A stretch of 24,761 bases of DNA from Candidatus Eiseniibacteriota bacterium (lineage in GTDB: Bacteria; Eisenbacteria; RBG-16-71-46; SZUA-252): the NCBI GenBank assembly GCA_031370645.1, contig JANMQV010000059.1, positions 1-24,761 of the forward strand. Direction: 5' to 3'. The position numbers were made by a program, and so were the translations under genes. This document shows, in pieces, positions 542 to 18,802 of the stretch. Position 1 is the stretch's first letter. Every line of letters starts with the position of its first letter. Under the pieces are notes generated by a model, which did not search any database, was not told the origin of the DNA, and worked only from the letters and a program-made list of their open reading frames with translations.

Positions 542-611
542 CGAACGACGCTACCGGGCAGTGGCGCCAACTGCAAGGATGGCAAGGCGGACGGAATTTT
601 GAGAAGGGACA
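542..611 (-). mobile_element. Left end (IRL region) of the family A element
   Basis: Lies just upstream of the transposase start. The terminus reads TGTCCCTTCTCAAAATTCCGTCCGC on the minus strand (611-587). It recurs at 7402-7424, 7425-7473, 10354-10378 and 12670-12694, and inverted at 1647-1671. Confidence 0.8.
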
Positions 612-671
612 GCTGTCTATTGAGCTTACGAATCGGTGACCGCGAGGCCCGTCCTCGCAATAGGAGGCCGT

Positions 672-1127
672 ATGGTCAAGCGCGCGATCGTTGCGTTCCT
701 CGCTTGTAGCTCGATTCTTCTGGTGTCCCGTGCGTACGCCCAGCCTATGCCGGAATCCCTACTCCGCCTGAAGCCGAGCGCGAACCTGCGCGTTGAAACC
801 ACGTCCCATCAGAAGATCGAGGGCCGGTTTCTCCGGGCCACGGGCGATACGCTCTTCCTGTCCGCTCAGGGAGCTGAAACTGCCGTGCCCTTGCGTGAGC
901 TGCACGGGCTCTGGAAGCGCGGCAGAGCCACCAAGACGGGCGCCATCGTCGTCGGCGCCATAGTGGGCATCGGATTTGGTGTCATTGCCGCGGGGGGAGG
1001 GCTTAATCCAGATACTCGCAGCAATGGCTCTCCCGTGGCCGCGTTCATCGTCGGCGCGGCGGCTGGTTCCCTGGTCGGGGCGCTGATCGGCGCCGCGATT
1101 CCGAAGTGGCACCGCCGCTATCCATGA
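672..1127 (+). CDS. Exported/membrane hypothetical protein with a C-terminal glycine-zipper-like hydrophobic region
   Basis: AGGAGG RBS at 662-667, ATG at 672, signal peptide ending AYA-Q, GxxxG-rich helices (GAIVVGAIVGIGFG; GAAAGSLVGALIGAA). Confidence 0.75.
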   Translation: MVKRAIVAFLACSSILLVSRAYAQPMPESLLRLKPSANLRVETTSHQKIEGRFLRATGDTLFLSAQGAETAVPLRELHGLWKRGRATKTGAIVVGAIVGIGFGVIAAGGGLNPDTRSNGSPVAAFIVGAAAGSLVGALIGAAIPKWHRRYP

Positions 1128-1612
1128 TGCGCGGCTGGTGGGTTGCCGTAGTCTGCCTGGGATTCGGTGTCGTACCAGCGGCCGCTCAGCAGACTGGTTC
1201 CGTGGGTATCCAGGGCGGCCTCAGTACTTCCGGGCCGGCCCTCGCCGGCACGGCAAACCTCCTGGCGGAGTTCGGCTCGTTCGGCATTGGCCCTGAAGTG
1301 GGGGTGTCTGGTCTGGGTGATGGCGCGAAGGCGTGGCACGTCGGGGGCACGTTCGGACTTGGCGCGTCTACTGGAAGGATCCGTCCCCATGGCGCTGTGG
1401 GCGTTGCGCGCTACTCGTGGAACATGTGCGCCGGCTGCGCGTCGCTTGGCTTGCTCGGCATTTCCATCGGCGCGGGCGCGGCGCTGGTCCGTCCACCGTC
1501 CGGGCTATCGCTGGAGACCGAGTTACGGTGGCATCGCCAGCTGCAGAGGGTCGGCGCATCGAAGACGATGAGCTTCGTGACAGTGACGCTCGGACCGACG
1601 TTGCACTGGTGA
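1124..1612 (+). CDS. Putative small outer-membrane beta-barrel protein
   Basis: ATGA overlap with the upstream gene, signal peptide ending AAA-Q, alternating Gly/hydrophobic strands, C-terminal strand VTVTLGPTLHW ending in an aromatic residue. Confidence 0.65.
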   Translation: MMRGWWVAVVCLGFGVVPAAAQQTGSVGIQGGLSTSGPALAGTANLLAEFGSFGIGPEVGVSGLGDGAKAWHVGGTFGLGASTGRIRPHGAVGVARYSWNMCAGCASLGLLGISIGAGAALVRPPSGLSLETELRWHRQLQRVGASKTMSFVTVTLGPTLHW

Positions 1613-1646
1613 GTTGTGGGCGTCGCGCGAGCGTGTCCCGTCTGCC

Positions 1647-1748
1647 TGTCCCTTCTCATAAATCCATCCGCATGCGAAAAGACCTCATCCGGGCCTGATC
1701 AGGGCCCCGAACCGTGGATGTCCTCGGCATCGGGAGCGGAGACTTTTC
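1647..1748 (-). mobile_element. Probable right end (IRR plus subterminal sequence) of the family A element
   Basis: TGTCCCTTCTCATAAATCCATCCGC (1647-1671) is an inverted copy of 587-611. The following 1684-1748 is repeated at 12498-12561, next to another family A relic. Confidence 0.7.
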
Positions 1749-1860
1749 TCCGAATAGTGCGTGGCGAAGTGGAAGGACCGTGGGACATCAGGGCAGACGC
1801 TCGGCACGAAGCTCCGCCCGCTCGGCTCGAAGCTTCTTGCGCTTGACCCGTTCTCGTGGA

Positions 1861-1889
1861 CATCTCCGATCGAGTTTTCGGACACTTCG
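1861..1889 (+). repeat. Family B element right-end motif
   Basis: CATCTCCGATCGAGTTTTCGGACACTTCG; the same motif follows the transposase C-terminus YHRRAA* at 7474-7532 and 9461-9521. Confidence 0.75.
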
Positions 1890-1924
1890 GCCATGGCCGG
1901 CCGTCCACCAGTTGCCGCTGGTAT

Positions 1925-1960: not shown

Positions 1961-2581
1961 ATGAGCAAGCACCCCGGATCCATCGACAGCCTCGTCCTCC
2001 GGCACATCCGCAAGATGAAGCCGGGCAACATCTTCACGCCTGGTGATCTGGCTAGGCTGGGGCCGCGCACGGCGGTTGCCTCGGCCCTCTCCCGGCATCT
2101 CAAGGCAGGCACGGTGAGGCAGCCGGCGCGCGGCCTCTATCAGGTTCCGGAAACGCATCCCCTCCTGGGAGAACTGGCCGCATCACCGGACCGGATCGCC
2201 AACGCGCTGGCAGGAAAGCATCGCCTCAGGCTTCAGCCATCGGGAGCGTACGCCGCGAATCTGCTCGGCCTGTCCGACCAGGTGCCCCAACGGATTGTCT
2301 ACCTCACGGACGGAACCCCGAGGCAGGTACGGATCGGAAAGCAGCAGATCGTACTTCGTCGCACCACCCCCCGGAACATGGCAACAGCGGGCCGCATCAG
2401 CGGCCTGGTCATTCAGGCATTGCGACACCTCGGCCGGCGCAACGTGGACCGGACGGTGATCGAGAAACTGCGGAAGCGGATCGGCCCCAGGGAGCGCGCC
2501 CAACTGCTCGCGGACGCGCCACTGGCGCCGGCGTGGATCAGTGAGCTGATGCGCGAGATCGCCCGCGGGACTAGGCGCTAG
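1961..2581 (+). CDS. abiEi: Type IV TA antitoxin, AbiEi-like (DUF6088 family)
   Basis: N-terminal wHTH (FTPGDL...ALSRHLKAGTVRQPARGLY) and SGAYAANLLGLSDQVP...YLTDG motif; directly upstream of AbiEii. Confidence 0.88.
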   Translation: MSKHPGSIDSLVLRHIRKMKPGNIFTPGDLARLGPRTAVASALSRHLKAGTVRQPARGLYQVPETHPLLGELAASPDRIANALAGKHRLRLQPSGAYAANLLGLSDQVPQRIVYLTDGTPRQVRIGKQQIVLRRTTPRNMATAGRISGLVIQALRHLGRRNVDRTVIEKLRKRIGPRERAQLLADAPLAPAWISELMREIARGTRR

Positions 2582-3607
2582 GTGAACCGGTTTCTGCTGC
2601 TCTCGCCCCACGATCGCGCGCGGGCATTCGAACAGGCTGCGGCAAGCCGCGGACTATCACCCGGGAGCGTGGAGAAGGACTTCTGGGTCTGCCTCATGCT
2701 CCGGGAACTGTTCACCCTGCCGGAACATGGTGAGCACCTCACGTTCAAGGGTGGGACCTCACTCTCCAAGGCATGGGGACTCATCGACCGCTTCTCCGAA
2801 GACCTCGATCTGACGATCGGGCGAGACACCCTGGGCTTTGGCGGCGACGACGGACCGGAAGCGGCAGGCAGCGGGAACGAGCAACGCCGACGGATTGAAG
2901 GGCTCAAGCAGGCCTGCCGGGACGTGGTTGCCCAACGGATCATGCCTGCACTAACCGCGCGAATGAGGGCGCTGCTTGCCCCGCATGAGTCCTGGAGCAT
3001 CACTTCCGATGACGAAGACCCCGATGCCCAGACATTACTATTCGGCTACCCGCGACTCGGGGCGACGACGACACCTTCCTATGTGAACCCGCTCGTGAAG
3101 CTCGAATTCGGCGCTCGATCCGATCCCTGGCCGGTCGAGGCGCGCCAGGTGACGCCCATCGTTGCCGAGGAATTTCCGCGGTTGTTCGACTCCCCCGCAT
3201 GCACAGTTCGAGCGCTGCTGCCCGAACGCACTTTCTGGGAGAAGGTCATGCTGCTCCACGAGGAAAGGTTCCGACCGGCGGGCAGGGCGCGACGGCCGCG
3301 GATTGCCCGTCACTACTACGACGTCTGGCGGCTAATCGAAGCAGGGGTCGCTGCGAGAGCCACCGCCGATCTGACGCTCTTCAAACAAGTCGCGGCGCAT
3401 CGCAGGGTGTACTTCCGGCAGGGTTGGGTGGACTACACCACGCTGAAGCGCGGAACGATCCAGATGCTGCCGCCGCCGGAACAGGTCGAGGAATGGCACC
3501 GGGACTATTCCGCCATGCAAGGGGATATGTTTGTCGGCCCCGCCCCGGGATTCGAGGAGATCCTGGCGAAGATCACGATCTTCCAATCGGAGTTCAATTC
3601 GGCATGA
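2582..3607 (+). CDS. abiEii: Type IV TA toxin, AbiEii/AbiGii nucleotidyltransferase
   Basis: VEKDFWV, FKGGTSLSKAWGLIDRFSEDLDL, ERTFWEK and RHYYD motifs; GTG start abuts the abiEi stop. Confidence 0.92.
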   Translation: MNRFLLLSPHDRARAFEQAAASRGLSPGSVEKDFWVCLMLRELFTLPEHGEHLTFKGGTSLSKAWGLIDRFSEDLDLTIGRDTLGFGGDDGPEAAGSGNEQRRRIEGLKQACRDVVAQRIMPALTARMRALLAPHESWSITSDDEDPDAQTLLFGYPRLGATTTPSYVNPLVKLEFGARSDPWPVEARQVTPIVAEEFPRLFDSPACTVRALLPERTFWEKVMLLHEERFRPAGRARRPRIARHYYDVWRLIEAGVAARATADLTLFKQVAAHRRVYFRQGWVDYTTLKRGTIQMLPPPEQVEEWHRDYSAMQGDMFVGPAPGFEEILAKITIFQSEFNSA

Positions 3608-3702: not shown

Positions 3703-3818
3703 GAGTTCGAACAGGGTTACGTTTGGGGAGCCAGATGACGAATCGCGAACTTTCGGGTTCGCGTTGATACGCGGGACCCTGGGGGCGAAAGCCGCTGGGG
3801 TCTTGGCGTATGTGGGCC
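3703..3818 (+). repeat. Structured repeat C, copy 1 (tRNA-like 3' end plus two hairpins)
   Basis: GAGTTCGAACAGGGTTACGTTTGGGGAGCCA, hairpin CGCGAAC-TTTCGG-GTTCGCG (3744-3763), long hairpin with GAAA loop (3769-3809). Homologous to 8247-8362 and 18181-18290. Confidence 0.85.
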
Positions 3819-3842
3819 GGGATCGAATTACCTATCCTACAG

Positions 3843-3995
3843 CTACTGGGGCCGTTGATGGTCGCCCTTGGCGCGCCACTTGAGGATCGTGGCTCGCACC
3901 CGCTCCGCCATCCGTACCTTCTCCGACCAGGAGAGATCCTTCCGCGCTTTCTGCCAGAGTGCTTGTCGCTTCAACAGGTCGTGCGTATCACTCAT
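3843..3995 (-). CDS. Small (50 aa) partner of the upstream nucleotidyltransferase
   Basis: MSDTHDLLKRQALWQKARKDLSWSEKVRMAERVRATILKWRAKGDHQRPQ. Its ATG overlaps the stop of 3992-4498 (ATGA), and its 3' end is duplicated at 13649-13728. Confidence 0.65.
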   Translation of the reverse strand: MSDTHDLLKRQALWQKARKDLSWSEKVRMAERVRATILKWRAKGDHQRPQ

Positions 3996-4498: not shown

Positions 4499-4633
4499 GG
4501 GAGCAGCCTACCCAAAGTGAAGGGCGTCACCTTGCGGACATTGGCGGAAGGGAGCATGACGCAGGAGTCTAACTGCCCGGGAGCCGCCTGTCAGCACTCA
4601 GGGTGAGGGCACTGAACATCAGCACTACAACGT

Positions 4634-4655
4634 GATCTAGTCTTCGGACACTTCG
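4634..4655 (+). repeat. Family B element right-end motif (degenerate)
   Basis: GATCTAGTCTTCGGACACTTCG, ending 2 bp from the kinase stop codon. Confidence 0.6.
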
Positions 4656-4657
4656 CG

Positions 4658-7183
4658 CTAGAAGAGTCCCTCCACAACATACAAATCATTCAGTCGCTGC
4701 GAGTAGGAGTAGGCGTAGCCCTGCTCATCGTCCGTCATGCGGATGCCGGTCAACCCTTCGACGCCGGTCGCGTCGGACGGGCTTAGCTCTCTCCAAAGCT
4801 TTCGCTCCCCGGTCGCCAGGTCGATGCGATGAACTTTGGAAGGCAGCTCGCCGCGCGTGAAGGCGAAGACGGCAGAGCCGTCCTTGCTCCAACGAATGGG
4901 GCGATCGTTGAGGGCGAAGCCCTTGAGCGGAACGGGAGTGCCGCCCCCGACGGGGAAGAGCAGCATGGTCAGATCGGGTCCGCGCGCCGCGGCAAACTGC
5001 CCGTCGGGGGAAACCAATAGGTCGGTCGAGCTGATCCCACCCTCCGTGAATGGCTCGCACTTCCCGGTAACGGAATCAACTTTGTAGAGCCGCGTCCCGA
5101 GATCGGGCTCCTGCCCCATCACGCAAAGCGTTTCTCCATCGGGGAACCAGACCGCGTGGTGCACGTCGAGCCTCTCGAGAGGAATTGTCCGCGCCGTTCC
5201 GGCACCGCAAGGAAGCAGGTCGAGCCGCGTAGGCGCGTATCCCACGCCGGCGAGCGCCCACTGACCATCTGGCGAGAGGGCAAAGCAGGCGCCGTCGCCC
5301 AGACGGATCGCGGGCGACCCGTCGGTGCCGCGCAGGTAGATTGAGTGATGCTCGCCGCCCCCGACGCCCGTTTCGTCGAATAGAATCCGCGAGCCATCGG
5401 GGGAAAGCGCACGGACGAGCGTCCAGTCGAGCCACGTCAAGTCGTGCGTGGCGGCTTCGCCGTGCAAATATTGCGTCCGGGCCCGCTCGTTCTCGAGGAT
5501 GACCAAGGCGGCGCCCTGACGCGAGACGTCGAACAGGGTCATATGGCCGGGTACTTCGAGAATCGGGCGTTCTTGTCCGGATAGGGAGACCGCGTAGAGA
5601 GACCTGCCGACGCCTGTCTTGAACGCGGTGAAGACGATCTCGTCTCCCTCGGGAGACCACGCCAGTCCGCGTGCGCTCTGCCAGCCGGTGGAGAGCTTCG
5701 TGACCACGCCCTCCGTATCGACCACTGTCGCCGTGCCCATGTCGTCGCCGCGGGTCGGATGATCGAGGAACGCGACGCGCTTTCCGTCGCGCGAGACACG
5801 CATGTGGCTCACCCAACCGGTCGTCTGGTAGAGGAGGGTCCCCATGGGGTACTCGACGCGAGTCAAGCCCGCTTCCTCGCGCGATACGGCGAGATGGCGC
5901 CCATCGGGGCTCCAGTCGGCTTCGTAAACGTCGTTGAGAAGTTCGCGGGGCGCGCCACCGCCTACCGGCATTCTCGCGAGCATCCCGGTATAGAGGAATC
6001 CGCCGCGAGCGTGGCGGCGAAGCGAGACCGCCATCTCGCCGGTGAGCGAAATCGCGAGGAGGTCGGTCTTGGGATATCCGAGCGCTCGTGACTCCGGATT
6101 TCCTGGATAGGCCCAAAAGAGTTCCACGTTCCGGCCTTCCCAAGCGGCCCCGTAACAGACGCCTTGGCCGTCGGGCGCGAAACGGGCTGAGAGGATGGAG
6201 CCTTCGCGGTAGGTCGTGCGGCGAAACGTGTGTCGGCGGGAACTCGGAATGAGAGCCGCCCCCTCGGTCGTCGCGCTCTCCGCGGTTGTGCCGACCCCGC
6301 GTTGTCCCGCCGTCGCCGCAGACCGCACCATGGAGAGGGAGAACGCGAGGTCGTTCGCCGAATCGAAGCGGTCGTCGGCGCGCTTTTCGAGGCAATGCGC
6401 GAGTACCGCCGAGACACCCGGAAGCGCTCCCTCGATCTCCGCGGAGAGCGCCTTCGGATCCGCCATCAGAATGGCGCTCATCCGGTCGGCATGGCTTTCG
6501 CCTTCGAACGCGCGTCGACCGGTCAGCATCTCGTAGAACATGGAACCGAGGGCGAAGAGGTCCGTGCGATGGTCGACCGGCAGCTCCCGAATCTGCTCGG
6601 GCGACATGTACGAGGCGGTGCCGAGAATCATACCGGTGGCCGTGAGCTGCGTCTGGATTGGCCCCGTCTTGTCGCGATCGGAGGGACCAGGTTCCCCGAC
6701 CAGGATCTTGGCGAGTCCGAAATCGAGAATCTTCACGTGGTCGCCGCTCACGATCATGACGTTCTCGGGCTTCAAGTCGCGATGGGCGATCCCCTTCGCG
6801 TGCGCGGCGGCGAGTCCCTTGGCAATTTGGATCGCATACCCCAGCGCCCGACGGGGCAGGAGGGGCCCGGCTGTGATCGGAGCGCGGAGGTCTTCGCCGG
6901 CTAGGAGCTCGGAGACGATGTAGGGGATGTCTCCTTCGGTGCCGACGTCATAGATGGCGATGATGTTCGGGTGGCTCAGCTGCCCCGCGGCGCGCGCCTC
7001 GCGCTGAAAGCGTTTTAGGCGGTCGGGATCCGAGACGAACGTGCGGGGGAGGACTTTGACGGCCACATCCCGCCCCAGCCGCCCGTCGCGAGCGCGATAG
7101 ACTTCGCCCATGCCGCCGGCGCCGAGGAGACCCTGTATTTCATAGGGGCCGAGCCGGGTGCCGGGGGCGAGGGCGGGGCTCAT
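4658..7183 (-). CDS. Hanks-type Ser/Thr protein kinase with C-terminal TolB-like/PD40 beta-propeller repeats
   Basis: GAGGMGEVY, VAVK, HRDLKPEN, DFG and YMSPEQ motifs, followed by repeated (W/L)SPDG motifs. Confidence 0.95.
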   Translation of the reverse strand: MSPALAPGTRLGPYEIQGLLGAGGMGEVYRARDGRLGRDVAVKVLPRTFVSDPDRLKRFQREARAAGQLSHPNIIAIYDVGTEGDIPYIVSELLAGEDLRAPITAGPLLPRRALGYAIQIAKGLAAAHAKGIAHRDLKPENVMIVSGDHVKILDFGLAKILVGEPGPSDRDKTGPIQTQLTATGMILGTASYMSPEQIRELPVDHRTDLFALGSMFYEMLTGRRAFEGESHADRMSAILMADPKALSAEIEGALPGVSAVLAHCLEKRADDRFDSANDLAFSLSMVRSAATAGQRGVGTTAESATTEGAALIPSSRRHTFRRTTYREGSILSARFAPDGQGVCYGAAWEGRNVELFWAYPGNPESRALGYPKTDLLAISLTGEMAVSLRRHARGGFLYTGMLARMPVGGGAPRELLNDVYEADWSPDGRHLAVSREEAGLTRVEYPMGTLLYQTTGWVSHMRVSRDGKRVAFLDHPTRGDDMGTATVVDTEGVVTKLSTGWQSARGLAWSPEGDEIVFTAFKTGVGRSLYAVSLSGQERPILEVPGHMTLFDVSRQGAALVILENERARTQYLHGEAATHDLTWLDWTLVRALSPDGSRILFDETGVGGGEHHSIYLRGTDGSPAIRLGDGACFALSPDGQWALAGVGYAPTRLDLLPCGAGTARTIPLERLDVHHAVWFPDGETLCVMGQEPDLGTRLYKVDSVTGKCEPFTEGGISSTDLLVSPDGQFAAARGPDLTMLLFPVGGGTPVPLKGFALNDRPIRWSKDGSAVFAFTRGELPSKVHRIDLATGERKLWRELSPSDATGVEGLTGIRMTDDEQGYAYSYSQRLNDLYVVEGLF

Positions 7184-7378: not shown

Positions 7379-7555
7379 AGTTCGAACATGGCTACGTTCG
7401 GGGACGGAATATCGAGAAGGCACAGGCGCCAACTGCAAGGACGGCAATGCGGACGGAATATTGAGAAGGGACAACTATCACCGGCGAGCGGCCTGAGAGA
7501 AAACATCTCCGATCGAGTTCTCGGACACAACCCGATCTACTTTTCGGACACTTCG
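7379..7555. mobile_element. Stack of five abutting element relics
   Basis: Partial repeat C (7379-7404), family A end (7402-7424), family A end (7425-7473), family B C-terminus YHRRAA* plus end (7474-7532), second family B end (7532-7555). Confidence 0.8.
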
Positions 7556-7567: not shown

Positions 7568-8050
7568 CTAGCGCTTCTCCTTCAATGTCCGCCGCAGAAC
7601 CGGGAGCACTGCACGGTCGGTCTCGCGGTTGAGGCGCTCCTTGATGGCGATGATTGTACGCAGGTCGAGAACCCGAACCCTCAGGCCGCCTTCGAGATCG
7701 AATAGATCGGAATGGGCGGCAAGCTCAGGGTAGCCCTCACCGGTCACGACCGCTCCCAGAACGTCCAACGGTCCGGCTCGGGTCATCAGCAAATGGTGCC
7801 CGGGCCCGCCCAGCCTCTGGCGATCAGGCGTGATCCGCACGTCCGGCTTCTCCCGATACCAAGCATCAAGATCCCGAAGCGCAGCCATCAGCCGATCGAG
7901 GTTGGTCTCTTCCCTCGAGTGCACGATGTCGAGATCGAACGTCGTGATCGGAGCACCCTGCAACGTGGCCGCGACGCCTCCCACGACGACCAGATCCACC
8001 TTGTGGCCGGCCAAGGCCTTGAGAATCGTCTCGAAATCAGTCGGCTGCAC
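7568..8050 (-). CDS. Pol-beta superfamily nucleotidyltransferase-like protein
   Basis: VVVGGVAATLQGAPITTFDLDIV motif, GPLDVLG, and KERLNRETD near the C-terminus; GTG start. Confidence 0.85.
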   Translation of the reverse strand: MQPTDFETILKALAGHKVDLVVVGGVAATLQGAPITTFDLDIVHSREETNLDRLMAALRDLDAWYREKPDVRITPDRQRLGGPGHHLLMTRAGPLDVLGAVVTGEGYPELAAHSDLFDLEGGLRVRVLDLRTIIAIKERLNRETDRAVLPVLRRTLKEKR

Positions 8051-8183
8051 GCCGCTCTCTGAGCCGGGAGATGGCGTTGACGGTGTCCTGGAGGACGCGG
8101 AGACGCTCCGCGGGGCTCAAGCTCAGGAACCATCGAATCAAGGACACGTCCACGCCGTCATTTCCTTCATCGCGCTCGGTCAT
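8037..8183 (-). CDS. Small (48 aa) protein upstream of the nucleotidyltransferase, putative antitoxin/partner
   Basis: Below the ORF-track cutoff. Manual translation MTERDEGNDGVDVSLIRWFLSLSPAERLRVLQDTVNAISRLRERRAAD*; overlaps the downstream start by 14 bp. Confidence 0.7.
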   Translation of the reverse strand: MTERDEGNDGVDVSLIRWFLSLSPAERLRVLQDTVNAISRLRERRAAD

Positions 8184-8246
8184 GCAGCCGAGTGTAGACC
8201 GCCCGAGCCCCTTCTGTCAGCAGTGAGGGTCGGGAAGGGAACTCGC

Positions 8247-8362
8247 GAGTTCGAACAGGGTTCCGCTCGGGGAGCCAGGTCACGAATTGCGAACTTTCGG
8301 GTTCGCGTAGAGACGCGGGGCCCCGGCAGCGAAAGCTGCTGGGGTCTTGGCGTATGGGGGCC
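8247..8362 (+). repeat. Structured repeat C, copy 2
   Basis: GAGTTCGAACAGGGTTCCGCTCGGGGAGCCA, hairpins at 8288-8307 and 8313-8353. Confidence 0.85.
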
Positions 8363-8625: not shown

Positions 8626-8997
8626 ATGCCGATAACACGAGTAGTCTTCTTCCGGGAGGACGACGGGAAAGTTCCGTTCCTGGACTGGTTCGGGGGCCTC
8701 TCGATTCACGCGAAGGACCAGTGCGCCGCCAAACTTACGCTACTCCGAGATCAGGGCCATGAGCTGCGGCGCCCTGCTGCAGAGAATCTAGGCGGAGGAA
8801 TTTACGAGCTTCGGGCGAAGTCTCGCGGCGTGAACTACGGGATGCTTTACTTCTTCGCTGGTCAGCGCGCGATCGTATTGTCGCACGGGTTCGATAAACA
8901 GCAGGCGAAAGTTCCGAAGCGAGACACGCAACAAGCGAAAGAGCGCATGGGCCAATTCGAAGCGGATCCCAGAGCCCATACCCATAAGGAGTCATGA
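8626..8997 (+). CDS. RelE/ParE-superfamily toxin (HigB / phage Gp49-like)
   Basis: G.VPFLDW, LRRP.A..LGGGIYELR, YFF and LSHGF.K motifs; toxin-first gene order. Confidence 0.85.
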   Translation: MPITRVVFFREDDGKVPFLDWFGGLSIHAKDQCAAKLTLLRDQGHELRRPAAENLGGGIYELRAKSRGVNYGMLYFFAGQRAIVLSHGFDKQQAKVPKRDTQQAKERMGQFEADPRAHTHKES

Positions 8998-9329: not shown

Positions 9330-9460
9330 CGCCGAGGCGAGCGACGGGGTGCTAGGACTCCACGCCCGCCTGATATCGACTCAAATGAGCCGATTTATCA
9401 ATATTCGATAAACTCGATAATCTCGGCATAATTCATCGATGGGCCCAGAGTTCCTCGTCG

Positions 9461-9521
9461 CTACTATCACCGGCGGGCTGCGTGAGACGGACAGTTCCGA
9501 ATCGAATTTTCGGGCACTACG
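9461..9521 (+). mobile_element. Family B relic: transposase C-terminus plus right end
   Basis: TAC TAT CAC CGG CGG GCT GCG TGA (YYHRRAA*), then ATCGAATTTTCGGGCACTACG. Confidence 0.8.
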
Positions 9522-10123: not shown

Positions 10124-10182
10124 CGTAGTATCCGAAAACTCGAATCTGCTGGAGCGTCCCGAGTTGCCACCCGCCTGATACC
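10124..10182 (+). mobile_element. Family B left end
   Basis: CGTAGTATCCGAAAACTCGA followed by about 40 bp that align with the leader at 18315-18372. Confidence 0.75.
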
Positions 10183-10184
10183 CT

Positions 10185-10378
10185 ATCGACGCGACCGCGT
10201 TCGCGTGGTTCTTCAGGAATGTCCGCCACGTCTGGGACAGCGGTCTCTTCCCGCGGGGCATGTACCCAGACACGGTGGCCTGGGCCATGTCGAGACCGAG
10301 CTTGAGCATCGAACGACGCTACCGGGGAGTCGCGCCACCGCAAGCCTGGCAACGCGGATGGAATATTTAGAAGGCACA
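10185..10378 (-). pseudogene. Internally deleted family A transposase relic with left end
   Basis: 10185-10310 aligns with 51-176 and 10302-10378 aligns with 534-611; the two parts join at TTGAGCATC. Confidence 0.85.
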
Positions 10379-10405
10379 GGTGTCTGCTACACTTCGCTGC
10401 AGCCT

Positions 10406-12282: not shown

Positions 12283-12497
12283 GTTCTCTCCTCCTTGCGA
12301 TACAGCATCCATGAACCTCGCTTCCGGTGCACAACTCGTGAACACCGATGCGGACGCGCGCCTGGCGAGTCGACCGCGCCGACTCCGGTCATGCCCCCGG
12401 ACGCGAGAGGCCGAAGTCTAGCACCCGCGGGAATCCCTTGTAAGGTTCCGTGATCTCCCCCACGCGCGCTGGTGACCAGGAAGTCGGTCGTGGCCAG

Positions 12498-12694
12498 CTC
12501 ATCCGGGCTTGATCAGGGCCTCGAATCGTGGATGTCCTCGGCATAGGGAGCCGAAGTTTTCGAGCCCCTAGGCGCGTCGGATCCGAAATATCGAGCCGAA
12601 CAAGCGCCGAATGATTTTGAGCATCGAACGACGCTACCGGGGAGTGGCGCCAACCGCAAGGGCGGCAGCGCGGACATAATATTGAGAAGACACA
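12498..12694 (-). mobile_element. Family A deletion derivative (subterminal right-end sequence fused to transposase start and left end)
   Basis: 12498-12561 matches 1684-1748 and 12571-12694 matches 488-611. Confidence 0.8.
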
Positions 12695-12697
12695 GAG

Positions 12698-12765
12698 CTG
12701 CTGAAGTAGTATCAACGGCGGGTGGCGTGGAAGGGACCTCTCCAATCAAGTTTTCGGACACCACT
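12698..12765 (+). mobile_element. Decayed family B C-terminus plus right end
   Basis: CTGCTGAAGTAGTATCAACGGCGG (compare LLKYYHRR at 18770-18793), then TCTCCAATCAAGTTTTCGGACACCAC. A weaker second copy may lie at 12771-12788. Confidence 0.7.
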
Positions 12766-12877
12766 CGGTTGAGTATTCGGATACGATGAGTTCCGCATTC
12801 ATTCCGGAGGTGGGGTTCACGGTCGCGGCAGGGAATACTTGCCCGCCTACGTCTCATCACATTCAAGGAGGAAGCGT

Positions 12878-13524: not shown

Positions 13525-13639
13525 GTAGTGTCCGAACACTCGAGGCTGATCGCGGCCAAGTGGGCCCATCCGCAGGACGATCGCCAAGGTGCTGAAGGAG
13601 CACGGGCTGATATCTCCGATCGAGTTGTCGGAGACTACG
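13525..13639 (+). mobile_element. 115-bp MITE-like derivative of the family B element
   Basis: Left IR GTAGTGTCCGAACACTCGA, internal transposase scraps (RLIAAKW; RTIAKVLKEHG), right IR TCTCCGATCGAGTTGTCGGAGACTACG. Confidence 0.8.
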
Positions 13640-13648
13640 CGCGCCGCC

Positions 13649-13728
13649 ATCGAAATATCTATCCTTCAGCTACTGTGGCCGTTGATGGTCGCGTTTGGCG
13701 CGCCTCTTGAAGATCGTGGCTCGCACCC
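13649..13728 (-). pseudogene. Orphan 3' fragment of a paralog of the small gene at 3843-3995
   Basis: 80 bp with 8 mismatches against 3822-3901; encodes ...VRATIFKRRAKRDHQRPQ*. Confidence 0.85.
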
Positions 13729-13743
13729 CGTGGGCTCCGACAA

Positions 13744-15027
13744 CTATTCGCAGACCGGCCCGATTCCTCGACCGTTATTGATGGCCGTCAGCGCGGCATT
13801 GAGCCTCGCATAATTCCCGCGGTTGGCCTTGAGCGTGCGGTCCGTCACAACGATTAGATCCCGTAAGGTAGCCGCGGTGCGGAAGTCGACTCGTGTGTCG
13901 GGATCGAGCCCGATGCTTTCACTACCTTGGAACCCGACGTTCAACTCGCCGGCCGCGACGTTGGCCATTAGCGCCGCGAATTGCCGCACGACTTGCTTGC
14001 GGCGGGTCAGTCCGACGGGATTGAGCGCCTGGCGGAGGCCATCCAAATCATTGGTCCAGTTGAAGTACGTGGACCGCTCGTCGACGCGCTGGGCGATCGC
14101 CCGAAGATCGGCCTGGGTGAGGCCGTTCATGTCCCCGCCCGGTTGGCCGTTTCCAAATGCCCGCCGCCAAAACTGCAGCGTGCGCGGGCAGTTGTCCCAA
14201 ACGACCTCTTCCGGATCTTGGTTATCCCCCGTGCCGTCGTCCGCGAGCGATAGAATTTGACTGCAGGTTTCGGTGCGCCCGGAGGTTTGGTCCCGCAGCC
14301 TGAGGGTGTAGTTCCCGGGCGCATCCGCCGTAATACAGCGCGCGGAGCCCGTAAAGCCATTCGGTCCGGTCCAGAGGTAGGAGGTGCCGCTCCGGGATGG
14401 CGCGCACAGCTGCACGGAGGCGCCTTCGGATATGGTCGTTGGACCCGTGATGTCGCAGTTCCCATTGGACTGCCCCGTTACCGCCAGGTGATGTGTGCAC
14501 TGCCGGGTACTTCGGGTGATCGGATTGCGGCTTGTCAGGTAGTAGGTCCCTTCTTCCTCCACGGTGATGCAAGCGCTCGTCGCCGTGTAGCCGTTCGGCC
14601 CGGTCCACCGATAGCTGTGGAGTCCGTCGTTCGGAGCGCAGAGCCGGGCGCTCGTCCCAACCGGAATCGATTGCGGTCCGCTGATGGTGCACGATCCGTT
14701 GCCGCCCGTGCTTCCACCTGCGTTCACGACCTTCGTGCAGCGCCCCACCTCGGCGTAATTTAGTTTGAGAACAAGAACAAATTCGTACGTGCCGGCGTTT
14801 GCAAGCCTTGCGGTGACGCACCGCGCTTCACTCTGCGTACCAAGGCCCGGACCATACCACTCATACATGTAATCGCCACTCGTTGGACCGCACAAGGTGA
14901 AGGACTCGTTGATCCCGACATCTGCCGGTCCCGCGATTGTGCAGGAGGGTTGCGCCGAACTCGGGGACGCCGCCAAGAGACTCGCGACCGCGGCCAACAA
15001 CCAAAAGCGTAGAGCGTGCCTTTTCAT
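13744..15027 (-). CDS. Secreted protein with three Cys-containing Ig/PKD-like repeats and a helical C-terminal domain
   Basis: GGAGG RBS, signal peptide, three copies of C.I.GP......S..LC.P....Y.W.GP......C.T....G.Y. Confidence 0.8.
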   Translation of the reverse strand: MKRHALRFWLLAAVASLLAASPSSAQPSCTIAGPADVGINESFTLCGPTSGDYMYEWYGPGLGTQSEARCVTARLANAGTYEFVLVLKLNYAEVGRCTKVVNAGGSTGGNGSCTISGPQSIPVGTSARLCAPNDGLHSYRWTGPNGYTATSACITVEEEGTYYLTSRNPITRSTRQCTHHLAVTGQSNGNCDITGPTTISEGASVQLCAPSRSGTSYLWTGPNGFTGSARCITADAPGNYTLRLRDQTSGRTETCSQILSLADDGTGDNQDPEEVVWDNCPRTLQFWRRAFGNGQPGGDMNGLTQADLRAIAQRVDERSTYFNWTNDLDGLRQALNPVGLTRRKQVVRQFAALMANVAAGELNVGFQGSESIGLDPDTRVDFRTAATLRDLIVVTDRTLKANRGNYARLNAALTAINNGRGIGPVCE

Positions 15028-15274
15028 ATGCCCTCCAGGGGGTCAAAATCGTGGTAGGTCGCGTTTCATCGAACGGAACGTTTCTTTCGTGTGTGGGGTG
15101 GCTTCATCGCCGTGTCGAAAGCGGGCTAAGCCAGTTTCATGCCATGCGGAGCGACAATCGCGTGCCCCCGGCAAGGTGTTGCAGACATGCCGATTTGCGT
15201 GCGACTCAGCCAGGCGGACGCGTCCAAGGGTCGTGGCCGGAGCGGTGTTCCGAAGGAAGAAATTACATTAGATG

Positions 15275-15356
15275 ATCGAGGAGAACCGCGTCCTCAAGAA
15301 ACAGCTCGAGGCTCGCGGAAAGTCGTCTGCGCTTCACCGATGATCAGCTTCGTCGG
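15275..15356 (+). pseudogene. Family B transposase N-terminal scrap
   Basis: IEENRVLKKQLEARGK, a 1-nt frameshift, then RLRFTDDQLRR; homologous to 18462-18540. Confidence 0.8.
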
Positions 15357-15449
15357 TGGACGTCCTCAGAAAGGGCATTGGGTGGACGCGGATCTCTTAC
15401 CGGAATCGTGCGCATTCATCTCGAAGCATGCTCATCTCAGATCGACGGG

Positions 15450-16184
15450 CTAGAACTCGGACTCGATGGCCACCCGGCCGACGAGAGGGACGTCCGCGGA
15501 TCCGAGTCCAATCCCCATACCCAGCTTGAAGGTGATTTCGTGCGGGAACGCGAACCAGAGCTGCGGGAACAGCGTGGCGCTCTTCTGTGCCGGGAACTGC
15601 TTGAATTCAGCGCCCACTCGTAGAAACCCCTCCGCGGGGTATCGAGCGCCGATCGCGTAGCGAAACTGAACGGCTGGATCGGGCGCGACTGTGACGGGCA
15701 GATCCAAGTTCAGGGTTGTGTTGAACGCCGTGGAGAGATCTCGGGATACGACAAGTCGCGGGGTGAGCACCTGCTCTCGCTCTCCCTCGGTGGCGCGAGC
15801 GGTCTCGAGCTCGTATTCCAGGGAAGCTGCAAGGTCCAGCGGTCCCTGGCCCTCCTCCGCGAAGCGATAGCGGGTCTCCGCCCTAAATCGTCCGAATCCC
15901 AGGCCCGACGGATCCTGCACCCACTGGGCCGCTCCGTCGATCGTCCAATGCGACGTGGCACCGTATTCGAAAGCCCCCGTGTACCACTGGCGTGGATGCC
16001 GATCGCTGCCCGCGTGAATCTCTCCCCAGAGTTCGATCTCTCGCTCGCCGCGGCCCAGGGTCTGATAGACAAATGTTTCGTCGATGTAATCGTCTCGGTG
16101 GGCGAAGGCGCGGGGTGTGGATCCAAGGGTCGCTGCCATGAGCAGCAGCCAAACTCGGATGGCGACTGTTCGGAGCGTTTGCAC
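15450..16184 (-). CDS. Putative outer-membrane beta-barrel / transporter-like protein
   Basis: Signal peptide ending AFA-H, amphipathic strands, C-terminal Phe (IESEF). The start is estimated (GTG at 16184); the ORF-track extension to 16466 overlaps an unrelated fragment on the other strand. Confidence 0.7.
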   Translation of the reverse strand: MQTLRTVAIRVWLLLMAATLGSTPRAFAHRDDYIDETFVYQTLGRGEREIELWGEIHAGSDRHPRQWYTGAFEYGATSHWTIDGAAQWVQDPSGLGFGRFRAETRYRFAEEGQGPLDLAASLEYELETARATEGEREQVLTPRLVVSRDLSTAFNTTLNLDLPVTVAPDPAVQFRYAIGARYPAEGFLRVGAEFKQFPAQKSATLFPQLWFAFPHEITFKLGMGIGLGSADVPLVGRVAIESEF

Positions 16185-16251
16185 CGCATCATCGTCACAC
16201 GCTCTGAATCGCGACGTAAAGTTTTTCGTCACTCGGGTGGGTGTACGCGGG

Positions 16252-16407
16252 TACCTCCGAGCGATGGCGGATCTGGGACCGGGACCGCATCGATCGGGAG
16301 ACATCGCCGAAAAACTGGGGCGCGCGGTGACTGCGCTCGGCCCCACCAGAAATAAGCTGATAGCCAAGGGAATGATCTGGAGCCCCAACCACGGCGACAC
16401 CGCATAG
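16252..16407 (+). pseudogene. C-terminal wHTH fragment of an AAA-ATPase-type protein
   Basis: YLRAMADLGPGPHRSGDIAEKLGRAVTALGPTRNKLIAKGMIWSPNHGDTA* resembles, from recall, the conserved C-terminus of AAA_16-like ATP-binding proteins. No N-terminus is present. Confidence 0.65.
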
Positions 16408-16997
16408 GCGGGAGTCGGCCAGGCGAGTACCGGCCCTACCAAGATAGAGGGGACCAATGGGCCCATGGACTCACCCGGGCTGCGAGGAAGATTCTGGCAG
16501 TATGGAGACGAGGACGGTGTACCCTTGGCGTACGGGGGAAGGCCAGATCGCTGACGTTCCTACAACGAAAGCTCTGTGGTTTGAAGTACCCGGCGTGACT
16601 CTTGAACTTCTTTCCTTCCGGCCGATGGTTGCCCTCGATCAGCCGCCACGCGCGGCGACGAGAAACGGTGCTAACGGACGTACCCACAGGGGCCTATCGA
16701 GGGCCACGAAACTTCCTCCGACGCATGGCACCGTTCCTGCCTTGCTCTCGAGTGGGTAACGGAATTCGTCGGAGACGGCGGTGCCGGCTTCTTCGCCGTG
16801 TGTGGGCAATGTGACGTACTGCTCCATAGCTCATGCAAGCCACGAGTCGCCGAATCCACCAATCCCGGCGGGCCTCAGGACAACTCTCCGGTCCAGCCAC
16901 TGGCGTGCGGCGCCATTCACCTCGACAAGCCCACTCCACCGTTGCAGGGCAATACGCACGCGACGCACCACTAACGGCACAACAGGAGGATTTCCCG

Positions 16998-18044
16998 ATG
17001 CATCCCCGGACAAACAACTTCGCAGCGTGGCCACTGGTAGTACTGCTGGTCGCGATGGCTGGATGTAGCTCCGACAACCCCACCGGGCCCGGAGTCGACA
17101 CCGTCGCACCGACAGTGAGTTCCACTAACCCCGTCAATGGCGCCACAGGCGTGGCGATCATTACGGCATCGTTCAGTGAGGCGATGAACGCCTCGACGAT
17201 CACGACGACCACCTTCACCGTGAGCGGACCCGGCGCAACTCCCGTGATCGGGACCGTCGCCTACAATGCGTCGACCCACATTTCGAGATTCACGCCCACG
17301 AGTGCCCTCGCGGCCAACACGGCATATACCGCGACGATCACGACCGGGGCCAAGGATCTCGTCGGCAATGCGCTCGCGAGCCCCCATGTGTGGAGCTTCA
17401 CGACGTCGGCGACGTCCAGCAATCAGGCGCCAGTGGTTCTCGGCGGGGCTGGGCCTTTCGCGGTTCTGGCCGGTTCGACGGTCACCAACACGGGTGCAAC
17501 CGCTCTGACGGGAGATCTGGGCGTGAGCCCGGGAAGCGCGGTGACTGGCTTTCCGCCGGGAACGCTGACCGGTACGAAGCACGTTGCCGATCCCACTTCA
17601 GCGCAGGCCAAGCTCGATCTGACCACGGCGTATAACGACGCGGCTGGACGAACGCTGGCACCCGTCACCGTCGCCGGGAATCTCGGCGGCTTGACTCTGC
17701 CACCCGGCCTCTACAAATCCACGTCCTCGCTCATGGTCTCCTCAGGCGATCTGACGCTCGACGCCCAGGGCAACCCGAATGCTGTCTTCATTTTTCAAAT
17801 GGCATCAACACTTACCACGACATCTGGCCGAGCAGTGATCCTGAGCGGTGGCGCCAAGGCTTCAAACGTCTTCTGGCAGGTGGGCAGCTCGGCGACGCTT
17901 GGAACGACGTCCGCATTCAAGGGCACCATCATGGCAGATCAGGCTATCACTTTGAAAACCGGGGCGAGGCTGGATGGCAGGGCACTGACACGGATCGGCG
18001 GGGTTGCGCTGGCCGGCAATACCGTCGTAGTGCCCGCCCCGTAG
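16998..18044 (+). CDS. Lipoprotein with an SbsA-type Ig-like domain and an ice-binding-like DUF3494 domain
   Basis: AGGAGG RBS, lipobox MAGC, DTVAPTVSSTNP...FSEAMN...KDLVGNAL (Big_5), FAVLAGSTVTNTG, GDLGVSPG, LPPGLY, VFIFQ, NVFWQVGSSATLGT. Confidence 0.92.
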   Translation: MHPRTNNFAAWPLVVLLVAMAGCSSDNPTGPGVDTVAPTVSSTNPVNGATGVAIITASFSEAMNASTITTTTFTVSGPGATPVIGTVAYNASTHISRFTPTSALAANTAYTATITTGAKDLVGNALASPHVWSFTTSATSSNQAPVVLGGAGPFAVLAGSTVTNTGATALTGDLGVSPGSAVTGFPPGTLTGTKHVADPTSAQAKLDLTTAYNDAAGRTLAPVTVAGNLGGLTLPPGLYKSTSSLMVSSGDLTLDAQGNPNAVFIFQMASTLTTTSGRAVILSGGAKASNVFWQVGSSATLGTTSAFKGTIMADQAITLKTGARLDGRALTRIGGVALAGNTVVVPAP

Positions 18045-18056
18045 AGTTTCGAAGAC

Positions 18057-18081
18057 CGGCGGCGAAGGAGTTTCGCCGCCG
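18057..18081 (+). terminator. Hairpin downstream of the DUF3494 gene
   Basis: CGGCGGCGAA-GGAGT-TTCGCCGCCG, with no U tract. A second 12-bp inverted repeat follows at 18093-18104/18132-18143. Confidence 0.45.
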
Positions 18082-18180
18082 CGGGATCACGTCGCGCACC
18101 TCCAACCGGTGGAAGTCGAATCACGCCGGCATGGAGGTGCGCGCTCAGGAGTGTTCGTCACTCATCCCTCAGGTGTCTAG

Positions 18181-18290
18181 CGAATCGGGGGTACCCTCGG
18201 GGAGCCAGATCACGAATCGCGAACTTTCGCGTTCGCGTAGAGACGCGGGACCCTGGCGGCGAAAGCTGCTGGGGTCTTGGCGTTAAGGGG
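18181..18290 (+). repeat. Structured repeat C, copy 3
   Basis: CTCGGGGAGCCA (18196-18207), hairpins at 18218-18237 and 18243-18283. Confidence 0.85.
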
Positions 18291-18314
18291 CGTGGTTTGG
18301 GGCCTCGCGACGCC

Positions 18315-18802
18315 CGTAGTATCCGAAAAATCGAGTCCGCTGTAGTGCTGCGCGTTACCCCCGTCGGATACGCTCCCCGGATGATCGAACTACAGCTACT
18401 TCTGGGAACCTTTGCTGCCTGGTCCAACCGTCGCCGGGGAGCCGTGATCACGTATTTCGTTGAGGAGAACCGCGTCCTCAAGGAACAGCTCCAGTCGGGA
18501 GGGAGGCGCCTCCGCTTCTCCGATGACCAGCGGCGGCGCCTCGCCGCAAAGGGCAGGCCATTGGGCCTCAAAGCGTTGAGGCAGATCGCGACGGTCGTGA
18601 CGCCGGAGGCAATCTTGGCGTGGCACCGACGGCTCATCGCGGCCAAGTGGACATATCCGCGGCGCCGAACGAGCCGCCCCGGAGCCATCAGGGGCTCGGG
18701 AACGAGATCGTAAGCGGGGCTCCAGTACAGCGAGAGGGCGTGATCGAGGCGAGCGAGCGGCTCGGGGGCTTGCTGAAGTATTATCACCGGCGCGCGGCGT
18801 GA
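18315..18802 (+). mobile_element. Family B element relic: left end plus transposase lacking its catalytic core
   Basis: CGTAGTATCCGAAAAATCGA; ATG at 18381 gives MIELQLLL...EENRVLKEQL...RLRFSDDQRRRLAAKG...VTPEAILAWHRRLIAAKW...RPG, joined out of frame near 18682 to SHQGLGNE...ERLGGLLKYYHRRAA*. Confidence 0.88.

What the first reader, a model, noticed from the sequence alone, without database searches (positions are those of the whole stretch)
542..18802. Strict co-orientation of all element relics
Every family A piece is oriented as if its transposase were on the minus strand (6 pieces, taking 1647 as the right end). Every family B piece is oriented as if its transposase were on the plus strand (10 pieces). 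All four repeat C copies also face the same way, while cargo genes occur on both strands. Independent random insertions should give mixed orientations, so a directional, targeted accretion mechanism or a strong replication-linked bias is implied.
Basis: partly seen in the sequence, partly recalled or inferred. Interest (0 to 1): 0.75.

Follow-up and report, generated by a model that had tools for sequence, protein, structure and literature searches.

The report
Co-oriented IS relics in tRNA-linked island
The same-direction rule for all the decayed jumping-gene copies is real and recurs in distant bacteria, and it most likely arises because this gene island grows by insertions aimed at sequences already in place rather than by random hopping.

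Summary
Observation confirmed. With full-length reference copies from a same-genus genome, all 6 family-A pieces have transposase sense on the minus strand and all 10 family-B pieces on the plus strand. Repeat C is not a separate element: it is the last 8 codons of B's transposase gene.

A and B are two related rve/DDE insertion sequences (33-37% identical), near but outside the IS481 and IS3 models.

Window 1-18.8 kb is part of a variable island. In relatives it hangs on the 3' end of tRNA-Asn and carries co-oriented tRNA-tail copies and tyrosine-integrase 3' relics.

B-type copies are entirely co-oriented in 14 of 16 clusters examined, including Planctomycetota and metagenome loci without a tRNA. 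Where one element is nested in another, the insertion lies near an end and the polarity is fixed.

Local GC skew around 47 loci gives 26 positive and 21 negative, so a strict replication rule is not supported.

Best reading: growth by like-targeted insertion, meaning att-site integration plus IS end-targeting or IS-bearing circles. Such insertion can only make direct repeats.

The scan has noted tRNA-anchored cassette arrays on other DNA, but not this IS polarity rule.

The parts
2..613 (-). Family A IS, 5' part with left inverted repeat (587-612); open transposase N-terminus runs off the contig start
   Evidence: 87% to L002 863-1474; HTH_32/HTH_21
1644..1844 (-). Family A right end (inverted repeat 1647-1671 plus 3' untranslated part)
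   Evidence: 76-78% to A positions 1133-1338 = L002 148-335, downstream of the transposase stop
7403..7478 (-). Two stacked family A left ends (7403-7425 and 7425-7478)
   Evidence: (D7)
10185..10379 (-). Family A relic with internal deletion (A 449-574 joined to A 13-95)
12495..12695 (-). Family A relic with internal deletion (A 1244-1301 joined to A 13-128)
1859..1889 (+). Family B right inverted repeat, solo
   Evidence: (D6)
4627..4656 (+). Family B right inverted repeat remnant; carries the same stacked junction as 7525-7555
   Evidence: (D12)
7476..7555 (+). Family B 3' end (repeat C, last codons plus right repeat) followed by a second 24-nt right-repeat remnant
9462..9521 (+). Family B 3' end (repeat C plus right inverted repeat)
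10124..10184 (+). Family B left inverted repeat and 5' leader
   Evidence: orthologous junction in L002 2168-2228
12699..12764 (+). Family B 3' end (repeat C plus right inverted repeat), abutted by A's left end
13544..13653 (+). Family B fragments (B 327-367, 487-523) and right inverted repeat
15278..15383 (+). Family B N-terminal coding fragment (B 158-262)
18312..18808 (+). Family B copy with a 628-bp internal deletion; has the left repeat, no right repeat found; contains the fourth repeat C
   Evidence: 94% and 85% to L012
3703..3901 (+). T repeat, uninterrupted: T-left (tRNA-Asn 3' tail relic plus two hairpins, 3703-3818) and T-right (3816-3901)
   Evidence: (D2, D8)
8247..8362 (+). T-left copy 2
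18177..18292 (+). T-left copy 3, about 20 nt before B's left end
13643..13728 (+). T-right copy directly after a B right inverted repeat
16198..16269 (-). Relic of the last ~24 codons of a tyrosine integrase (…AYTHPSDEKLY…stop)
   Evidence: tblastn with the G018 island integrase relics, E about 0.002-0.003 within the window, 13 of 24 residues identical; weak
18815..18900 (.). Island/core boundary: from here on 95% collinear with G002:C265

Best explanation
Window 1-18.8 kb is part of a variable island that, in relatives, hangs on the 3' end of the tRNA-Asn(GTT) gene. Short accessory modules (toxin-antitoxin pairs, a Ser/Thr kinase, lipoproteins, an ice-binding-like protein) are separated by scars of recombination machinery:
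- copies of the tRNA tail plus its two downstream hairpins (T-left);
- the last codons of a tyrosine integrase;
- decayed copies of two related IS481/IS3-like insertion sequences, A and B.

Each kind of scar points one way because the island did not grow by scattered, independent transposition. It grew by insertions aimed at a like sequence already in place.
1. Integrase-type insertion at the tRNA tail leaves co-oriented tail copies.
2. A/B copies, alone or as circles carrying adjacent DNA, insert into or next to the ends of resident A/B copies. This could be transposase-mediated end-targeting or crossover between IS copies. Either way the topology allows only direct repeats, or in nested cases one fixed polarity.
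3. Later deletions, often ending exactly at an IS tip, trimmed the copies. They mostly left the end away from the tRNA (12 such ends against 3).

Shown here: the identities and orientations of the pieces; the tRNA anchor in relatives; the end-proximal nested junctions; the recurrence of co-oriented clusters in other phyla.

Inferred: the reaction type (end-targeted or Campbell-type insertion), the order of events, and that cargo travels with IS copies.
For: 1. Orientation: A 6 of 6 pieces minus, B 10 of 10 plus.

2. tRNA anchor.
- L002 starts with the 3' part of tRNA-Asn(GTT), then T-left, then an intact A 13 nt later.
- In the one-contig genome G018 the tRNA-Asn gene (minus strand, 2,894,430-504) is followed over 103 kb by 9 T-left copies (all minus), 3 B relics (all minus) and 4 Pfam-scored integrase relics (all plus).
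- G009:C20 has tRNA-Asn, 4 T-left relics (minus) and 3 integrase 3' relics (plus).
- T-left was found in 12 of 24 same-family genomes searched, and same-contig copies are always co-oriented.
- The window has an integrase 3' relic on the expected strand.

3. Same-family co-orientation elsewhere. Of 16 clusters with two or more B-type pieces, 14 are entirely co-oriented and 2 have one weak discordant relic. These include L047 and L048 (Planctomycetota by record title) and L113. No tRNA was found in L047 or L048, and no integrase among 13 cargo ORFs of L047.

4. End-proximal nesting.
- A's left end abuts B 56-68 nt from B's right tip at 7473 and 12695.
- A's left end abuts about 15 nt from B's right tip in L002.
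- B right repeat abuts a 24-nt B right-repeat remnant at 7529.
- A 24-nt left-repeat remnant abuts a left repeat in L002.
- A is nested in A at 62 nt.
- B's right tip abuts a 27-nt A left-end remnant, and another abuts an A 5' part, in L047.
- B is nested in an A-like copy at about codon 48 in L066.
- Polarity is parallel in 3 of 3 same-family cases and antiparallel in all cross-family nested cases.

5. Permuted flanks. B right end | T-right ... cargo ... T-left | B left end (13635-18316) is what a circle holding B inside T would give after crossover with a resident B. The intact A in L002 has no target duplication.

6. Precedents.
- IS30 IR-targeting has 'pronounced orientation specificity' (PMC9333248, passages read).
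- IS26 units insert next to a resident IS26 'always in the same orientation' (PMC4196232, abstract).
- Tandem islands with direct repeats lie within 100 kb downstream of ssrA (PMC3146451, passages).
Against: - No abutted right-end/left-end junction (circle or tandem-dimer signature) was found in any sequence held (0 hits).
- Target duplications could be read for only 1 of about 10 intact B-type copies (GGCT/GGGCTC in L036). The 'no duplication' argument is therefore weak.
- The tRNA-Asn gene is not assembled in this genome (0 of 49 tRNAs), so the anchor is inferred from relatives.
- The integrase relic in the window is a 24-residue match only.
- A and B are antiparallel in 9 clusters but parallel in 3 (G030:C13, G030:C109, L056), so the cross-family rule is not universal.
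- The Eisenbacteria islands are probably homologous by descent, so their agreement is not independent.
- L048 also has a duplicated cargo segment, which fits plain segmental duplication.
- Raw counts of direct against inverted repeat pairs are not diagnostic. In the other 38 contigs of 20 kb or more, 72 of 82 dispersed pairs are direct, and C210 holds inverted paralogues.
Confidence: 0.5

Rival explanations
1. Passenger model. The IS relics never chose their orientation. Each came in as a fixed part of a module integrated at the tRNA-Asn tail by the tyrosine integrase, or by crossover between shared relics. Polarity is simply inherited from the att site.
For: - T-left, integrase, A and B relics keep one relative orientation wherever they co-occur. 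B is parallel to T-left in 6 of 6 contigs; A is antiparallel in 5 of 6.
- T-left lies about 20 nt from B's left end in the window and in G003:C172.
- Conserved module ends (kinase 5' end, leader, then T-left) recur in G002 and G003.
Against: - Co-oriented A/B clusters with intact copies exist in other phyla with no tRNA in the locus (L047, L048) and no integrase among the 13 L047 cargo ORFs scanned.
- Stacked terminal remnants and junctions exactly at IS tips point to transposase action.
- An intact B with a target duplication sits at a non-T site, yet is co-oriented.
Confidence: 0.25
2. In-situ duplication. A few ancestral composites (for example a B copy carrying a nested A) were duplicated locally or moved as units and then diverged. 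The 16 pieces would then represent very few events.
For: - The junction of A's left end with B's 3' end recurs, and one alignment runs across it (7425-7551 against 12646-12784).
- 4627-56 and 7525-55 share one stacked junction.
- The B remnants at 7474 and 9463 start at the same base.
- L048 has a duplicated cargo segment.
Against: - Cargo between relics is unrelated throughout the window.
- The outer flanks differ at 7 of 7 B right ends and at 4 or more A left ends.
- Relics are closer to copies in other genomes than to each other: 10124-84 is 90% to G018 but 77% to 18315-74.
Confidence: 0.12
3. Replication-linked bias. The transposases insert in one orientation relative to the replication fork, so all copies on one replichore agree.
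For: - In G018, dnaA lies at 32.5 kb and the 120-kb region has plus-strand GC skew of -0.038. The tRNA, T-left and B (all minus) therefore run with the fork.
- The island part of the window has a weak positive skew, +0.017.
Against: - Flank GC skew relative to the transposase strand is positive at 14 and negative at 6 of 20 genome loci, and positive at 12 and negative at 15 of 27 metagenome loci. Nine loci are strongly negative (z<-2) and seven strongly positive (z>2).
- Co-oriented clusters occur with either sign: L113 z=-5.5, L047 z=+2.3.
- A and B are homologous but opposite.
- Local skew is only a proxy for the replichore.
Confidence: 0.05
4. Chance: independent insertions that happen to agree.
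For: None beyond the small number of truly independent events.
Against: The probability is about 2e-4 for this window alone if loci are independent. The same pattern is seen in 14 of 16 clusters.
Confidence: 0.01

Closest known systems
Tandem genomic islands at tRNA/tmRNA genes, e.g. Dehalococcoides ssrA islands (PMC3146451; passages read)
   Same: There is a variable region within about 100 kb downstream of one small-RNA gene. It holds many co-oriented direct repeats of the gene's 3' end, integration-module genes in one orientation, and cargo that differs between strains.
   Different: Here the repeat covers the last bases of tRNA-Asn plus about 75-100 nt of downstream hairpins. The integrases are tyrosine-type relics and none is intact in the loci examined. 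Two DDE IS families are interleaved with their own polarity rule. In the window's own genome the tRNA gene is not assembled.
IS26 translocatable-unit arrays (PMC4196232; abstract read)
   Same: Arrays of directly oriented IS copies with a unique cargo segment between each. New units enter next to a resident copy, always in the same orientation, without a new target duplication.
   Different: A and B are rve-type transposases near IS481/IS3, not IS6-family. Most copies are short end relics. Whether any conservative targeted reaction exists for them is untested.
IR-targeting of IS30 and 'targeted' transposition of IS911 (PMC9333248; passages read)
   Same: These are copy-out/paste-in-type DDE elements that insert at the ends of resident copies with strict orientation specificity, and they cause deletions that start exactly at an IS tip.
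   Different: IS30 gives abutted left/right-end junctions outside the repeat, and none was found here. Here the insertions lie 15-250 nt inside the resident end and also occur between two different families.
IS481 family insertion sequences
   Same: Elements of about 1.2-1.3 kb with a single rve/DDE transposase ORF of about 340-350 aa, terminal inverted repeats, and one copy with a 4-6 bp target duplication.
   Different: They score far below NCBI's IS481 model cut-off (74 and 88 bits against 224) and equally near IS3. Polarity-locked clustering is not, to my recollection, a described trait of IS481.
Integron cassette arrays (recalled, not tested against an attC model)
   Same: Co-oriented recombination sites separate single-gene or two-gene accessory modules, including toxin-antitoxin pairs.
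   Different: The repeats here are IS ends and a tRNA tail, not attC hairpins. No IntI-type integrase gene is adjacent.

Membership tests
IS481 family | Single-ORF rve (DDE) transposase with an N-terminal helix-turn-helix | tested here: met
   A has rve_3 and HTH_32. B has rve_3, HTH_21 and HTH_32. The single ORFs are 337 and 352 aa.
IS481 family | Score above NCBIfam NF033577 cut-off (224 bits) | tested here: not met
   A 73.9 bits, B 87.6 bits.
IS481 family | Terminal inverted repeats and short target duplication | tested here: inconclusive
   Inverted repeats are clear. A duplication (GGCT/GGGCTC) is seen in 1 of about 10 intact B-type copies inspected.
IS3 family | Two overlapping ORFs joined by a -1 frameshift; NF033516 cut-off 160 bits | tested here: not met
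   There is a single uninterrupted ORF. Scores are 83 and 84.7 bits.
tRNA/tmRNA-anchored tandem accretion island | Anchored at the 3' end of a tRNA or tmRNA gene | tested here: inconclusive
   Met in relatives: G018, G009:C20, G002:C109 and G002:C317 carry tRNA-Asn followed by T-left. In the window's genome no tRNA-Asn is assembled, and the contig starts inside an A copy.
tRNA/tmRNA-anchored tandem accretion island | Several co-oriented direct repeats of the gene's 3' end downstream | tested here: met
   Three T-left copies in the window, 9 in G018 and 4 in G009:C20. All are co-oriented.
tRNA/tmRNA-anchored tandem accretion island | Site-specific integrase genes or relics in fixed orientation | tested here: met
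   G018 has 4 Pfam-scored relics, all plus. G009 and G020 have relics. The window has one weak 24-residue relic on the matching strand. No intact integrase was seen in the loci examined.
IS26-type translocatable-unit array | Directly oriented IS copies interleaved with unique cargo | tested here: met
   Seen in the window, L047 and L048.
IS26-type translocatable-unit array | IS6-family transposase | tested here: not met
   The transposases are rve-type and nearest IS481/IS3.
IS26-type translocatable-unit array | Conservative, transposase-dependent reaction between two IS copies | not testable with these tools
   Needs a transposition assay.
IS30/IS911-type IR-targeting | Insertion at a resident end with fixed orientation | tested here: met
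   At least 10 nested junctions lie 15-250 nt from a resident tip. Polarity is parallel within a family (3 of 3) and antiparallel between families.
IS30/IS911-type IR-targeting | New abutted left-end/right-end junctions | tested here: not met
   Zero matches to right repeat, 0-14 nt, then left repeat in the window, the genome and all loci.

The most novel reading that the evidence does not exclude
A and B belong to a widespread, undescribed IS481/IS3-like group whose transposases carry out polarity-locked insertion into the ends of resident family members, including cross-family insertion that is always antiparallel when nested. They may also move adjacent DNA with them. In that way they would build co-oriented IS-cargo arrays, a gene-stockpiling platform comparable to IS26 arrays, in environmental phyla such as Eisenbacteria and Planctomycetota.
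Probability: 0.3. Interest if true: 0.7.

Novelty: new variant of a known kind. Interest (0 to 1): 0.5.

Why it matters
IS26 arrays are the textbook case of how directly oriented IS copies assemble accessory genes, and they are known mainly from clinical plasmids. This locus suggests that an unrelated rve-type IS group makes similar polarity-locked IS-cargo arrays in uncultured soil and sediment phyla, layered on a classical tRNA-anchored integration hotspot.

If the polarity comes from the transposition reaction itself, it gives a simple sequence signature for recognising targeted insertion from genomes alone: end-stacked relics all pointing one way. It would also offer a new model for how defence and toxin-antitoxin genes are stockpiled.

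If instead the polarity is only inherited from att-site accretion, the finding is an ordinary, though tidy, example of a known island type.

Tried and rejected
- Rfam and tRNA scans of the window found nothing, so T-left is not a catalogued RNA.
- Integron idea dropped: the repeats are IS ends and a tRNA tail.
- T-right as the N-terminus of a third transposase family: no BLASTP alignment to B; left open.
- Target-duplication analysis of intact copies: unreadable for most, so not used as evidence.
- Search for circle or tandem-dimer junctions: none.
- Raw direct/inverted pair counts (window 16 of 16; G018 154 of 154) are not a valid test. Other contigs of this genome give 72 of 82 direct, mostly intragenic repeats and tandem paralogues.
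- No integrase lies next to the live tRNA in G018.
- Reading the GATGTC/GATGGC flanks around the lipoprotein module as a permuted target duplication: only a 5 of 6 match, not conserved in L002; dropped.
- Public runs: only assembled contigs were available. They break at the repeats and gave no trustworthy joints apart from one 99-bp indel, and no view beyond the contig's left end.
- The 99-bp segment aligns to B ends only at noise level or slightly above it.
- Earlier-findings look-ups near the window and by sequence returned nothing.

Full report
**What the window is.** The window is a whole 24,761-bp contig (C186) of a 3.0-Mb, 247-contig genome. From about 18.9 kb onward it carries ordinary chromosomal genes: a TLC/HEAT membrane protein, a hybrid histidine kinase and a response regulator. 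Positions 1-18.8 kb hold short accessory modules on both strands. These are AbiEi/AbiEii, a Ser/Thr kinase with PD40 repeats, a Gp49/HTH pair, small lipoproteins, an ice-binding-like protein and several ORFs with no Pfam family.

**Checking the observation.**
- Self-BLAST gave 17 repeat pairs, all direct. Sixteen are in the island part. The only inverted matches are 20-27-nt terminal inverted repeats.
- Full-length elements were obtained from a same-genus genome. A is L002 148-1474, with a 337-aa transposase on its minus strand. B is L012 about 1432-2594, with a 352-aa transposase.
- Both transposases carry rve_3 and helix-turn-helix domains. They are 33-37% identical to each other. They score well below NCBI's cut-offs for both IS481 and IS3.
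- Mapped on the window, all six A pieces have transposase sense on the minus strand and all ten B pieces on the plus strand.
- Window 1644-1826 matches the part of A that lies after the transposase stop codon.
- Repeat C reads YYHRRAA-stop. It is the end of B's transposase gene, and B's right inverted repeat follows it in three of the four copies. It is part of B, not a third family.

**How independent the pieces are.**
- Seven B right ends have seven different outer flanks, and A left ends have at least four different flanks. Several separate junction-forming events are therefore involved.
- Some pieces share ancestry. The stacked right-repeat structure at 4627-56 and 7525-55 is one structure copied. 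The junction of A's left end with B's 3' end recurs at 7473 and 12695. The B remnants at 7474 and 9463 begin at the same base.

- The 116-nt repeat at 3703, 8247 and 18177 (T-left) is a decayed copy of the last bases of tRNA-Asn(GTT) plus two downstream hairpins. L002 begins with the real tRNA 3' part, runs into T-left, and has an intact A starting 13 nt later.
- In the single-contig relative G018, the tRNA-Asn gene at 2.894 Mb (minus strand) is followed over 103 kb by nine T-left copies, three internally deleted B copies (all minus) and tyrosine-integrase C-terminal relics (all plus).
- G009:C20, G020:C265, G014:C71, G002:C1 and G002:C265 show the same arrangement.
- T-left was found in 12 of 24 same-family genomes searched.
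- The window itself has a 24-residue integrase C-terminal relic at 16198-16269 on the strand this predicts. It is a weak match.
- The tRNA-Asn gene is missing from this assembly, so the anchor is inferred here.
- The island/core boundary at about 18815 is shared with G002:C265. There an A relic, not T-left plus B, abuts it.

This is the known scar pattern of tandem site-specific accretion, as described for Dehalococcoides ssrA islands (PMC3146451, passages). Earlier notes of this scan on other genomes describe similar tRNA-anchored arrays.

**Whether the IS polarity is only inherited from that process.**
- B-type elements are widespread: Eisenbacteria, Krumholzibacteriota, Latescibacterota, Planctomycetota and others by record title.
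- They form clusters elsewhere. Of 16 clusters with two or more B-type pieces, 14 are entirely co-oriented. Two have one weak discordant relic (L128, G027:C279).
- L047 (Planctomycetota) holds four B-type pieces, all plus, and five A-type pieces, all minus, spaced by 1.5-3 kb of cargo. The cargo includes an Mrr-type nuclease, methyltransferase, oxygenase and FG-GAP proteins. No tRNA was found, and no integrase among the 13 cargo ORFs scanned.
- The polarity rule therefore goes with the IS group, not only with the tRNA island.
- A and B are antiparallel in 9 clusters and parallel in 3.

**Junction anatomy.** Where one element is nested in another, the insertion point is close to an end of the resident. 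Known cases are:
- A into B at 56-68 nt from B's right tip (7473, 12695);
- A into B at about 15 nt from B's right tip (L002);
- B into B at 24 nt (7529; L002 left end);
- A into A at 62 nt;
- B into A at 27 nt and at about 245 nt (L047), and at about codon 48 (L066).

Polarity is parallel in the 3 same-family cases and antiparallel in every cross-family nested case. In the window the end away from the presumed tRNA side is kept in 12 cases and the near end in 3.

B right end | T-right ... cargo ... T-left | B left end (13635-18316) is a circularly permuted version of 'B inserted in T'. This is what integration of a B-bearing circle into a resident B would leave.

Orientation-specific insertion at resident ends is documented for IS30/IS911 (PMC9333248). 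Orientation-locked IS-cargo arrays are documented for IS26 (PMC4196232). The abutted-end junctions typical of IS30 were not found, and target duplications were mostly unreadable.

**Replication.**
- In G018, dnaA position and local skew put the tRNA and B co-directional with the fork.
- Across 47 B-type loci the flanking GC skew relative to the transposase strand is positive at 26 and negative at 21. Strong values occur on both sides, and co-oriented clusters occur under either sign.
- This proxy does not support a strict replication-linked rule. It cannot exclude a weak one.

**Control.** Counting all direct against inverted repeat pairs is not diagnostic. The other 38 large contigs give 72 direct of 82, mostly intragenic repeats and tandem paralogues, and C210 has inverted paralogues. 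The argument therefore rests on the IS and att relics, whose null expectation is 50:50.

**Verdict.** The best reading (about 0.5) has two parts:
- a tRNA-Asn integration hotspot that grows by insertion aimed at like sequences already in place;
- an IS481/IS3-like IS group that inserts, possibly with adjacent DNA, into or beside resident copies with fixed polarity.

The main rivals are pure inheritance as passengers of att-site modules (0.25) and in-situ duplication of a few composites (0.12). The island type and the polarity-locking principle are both known. The IS group, its cross-family nesting rule and its recurrence across phyla are not, to my knowledge, described. My three literature searches were aimed at precedents, not at this IS group by name, so that statement is limited.

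Noticed in passing
window 9365-9463: A 99-bp AT-rich stretch directly left of a B 3' relic is absent from contigs of three runs from two studies (joint 9364 to 9464; long flanks on both sides in two of the runs). This is a strain-level indel exactly at the relic's edge.
   Followed up: partly
window 21869-22608: A 381-bp tandem duplication (98% identical) inside the hybrid histidine kinase gene duplicates a PAS domain.
   Followed up: no
window 7150-7183 and 8190-8246; L029 9113-9400; L013; L028: A conserved leader of about 57 nt plus the 5' end of a minus-strand gene (usually a paralogous Ser/Thr kinase) sits directly left of T-left in several genomes. Integrated units therefore seem to end with a kinase gene. 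In the window about 1 kb has been inserted there, made up of IS relics and a small nucleotidyltransferase-like module.
   Followed up: partly
G018:C1 2,842,465-2,846,637 and 2,863,320-2,866,085 (L023, L024): Seven or eight copies of just the 3' end of the tyrosine integrase gene are spaced 0.7-2 kb apart, all in one orientation. This parallels the repeated B 3'-end relics in the window.
   Followed up: partly
L047 (Planctomycetota locus, 21 kb): An IS-cargo array with intact A-type and B-type copies, strictly antiparallel. It includes a composite of a B right repeat abutting a 27-nt A left-end remnant, present at two places (7753-7794, 14521-14562).
   Followed up: partly
window 18815 vs L029 16173: The island/core boundary is at the same base in two species of the genus, but the island side differs: T-left plus B here, an A relic there. 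Turnover therefore also happens at the far end of the island.
   Followed up: partly
window 1962-3607, 8626-9329, 7568-8133: Candidate toxin-antitoxin modules as cargo: DUF6088/AbiEi with AbiEii, Gp49 with an HTH protein, and a weak nucleotidyltransferase-like ORF with a small upstream ORF.
   Followed up: no
L025 1972-5127 (G018, near tRNA-Asn): A Type ISP restriction-modification enzyme and methyltransferases are among the tRNA-proximal cargo of the G018 island, so the island carries defence genes.
   Followed up: no
window 13744-15027 and 15450-16466 (minus strand): Two long ORFs (427 and 338 aa) have no Pfam family. The integrase relic lies inside the second in another frame, so that ORF may be spurious.
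   Followed up: no
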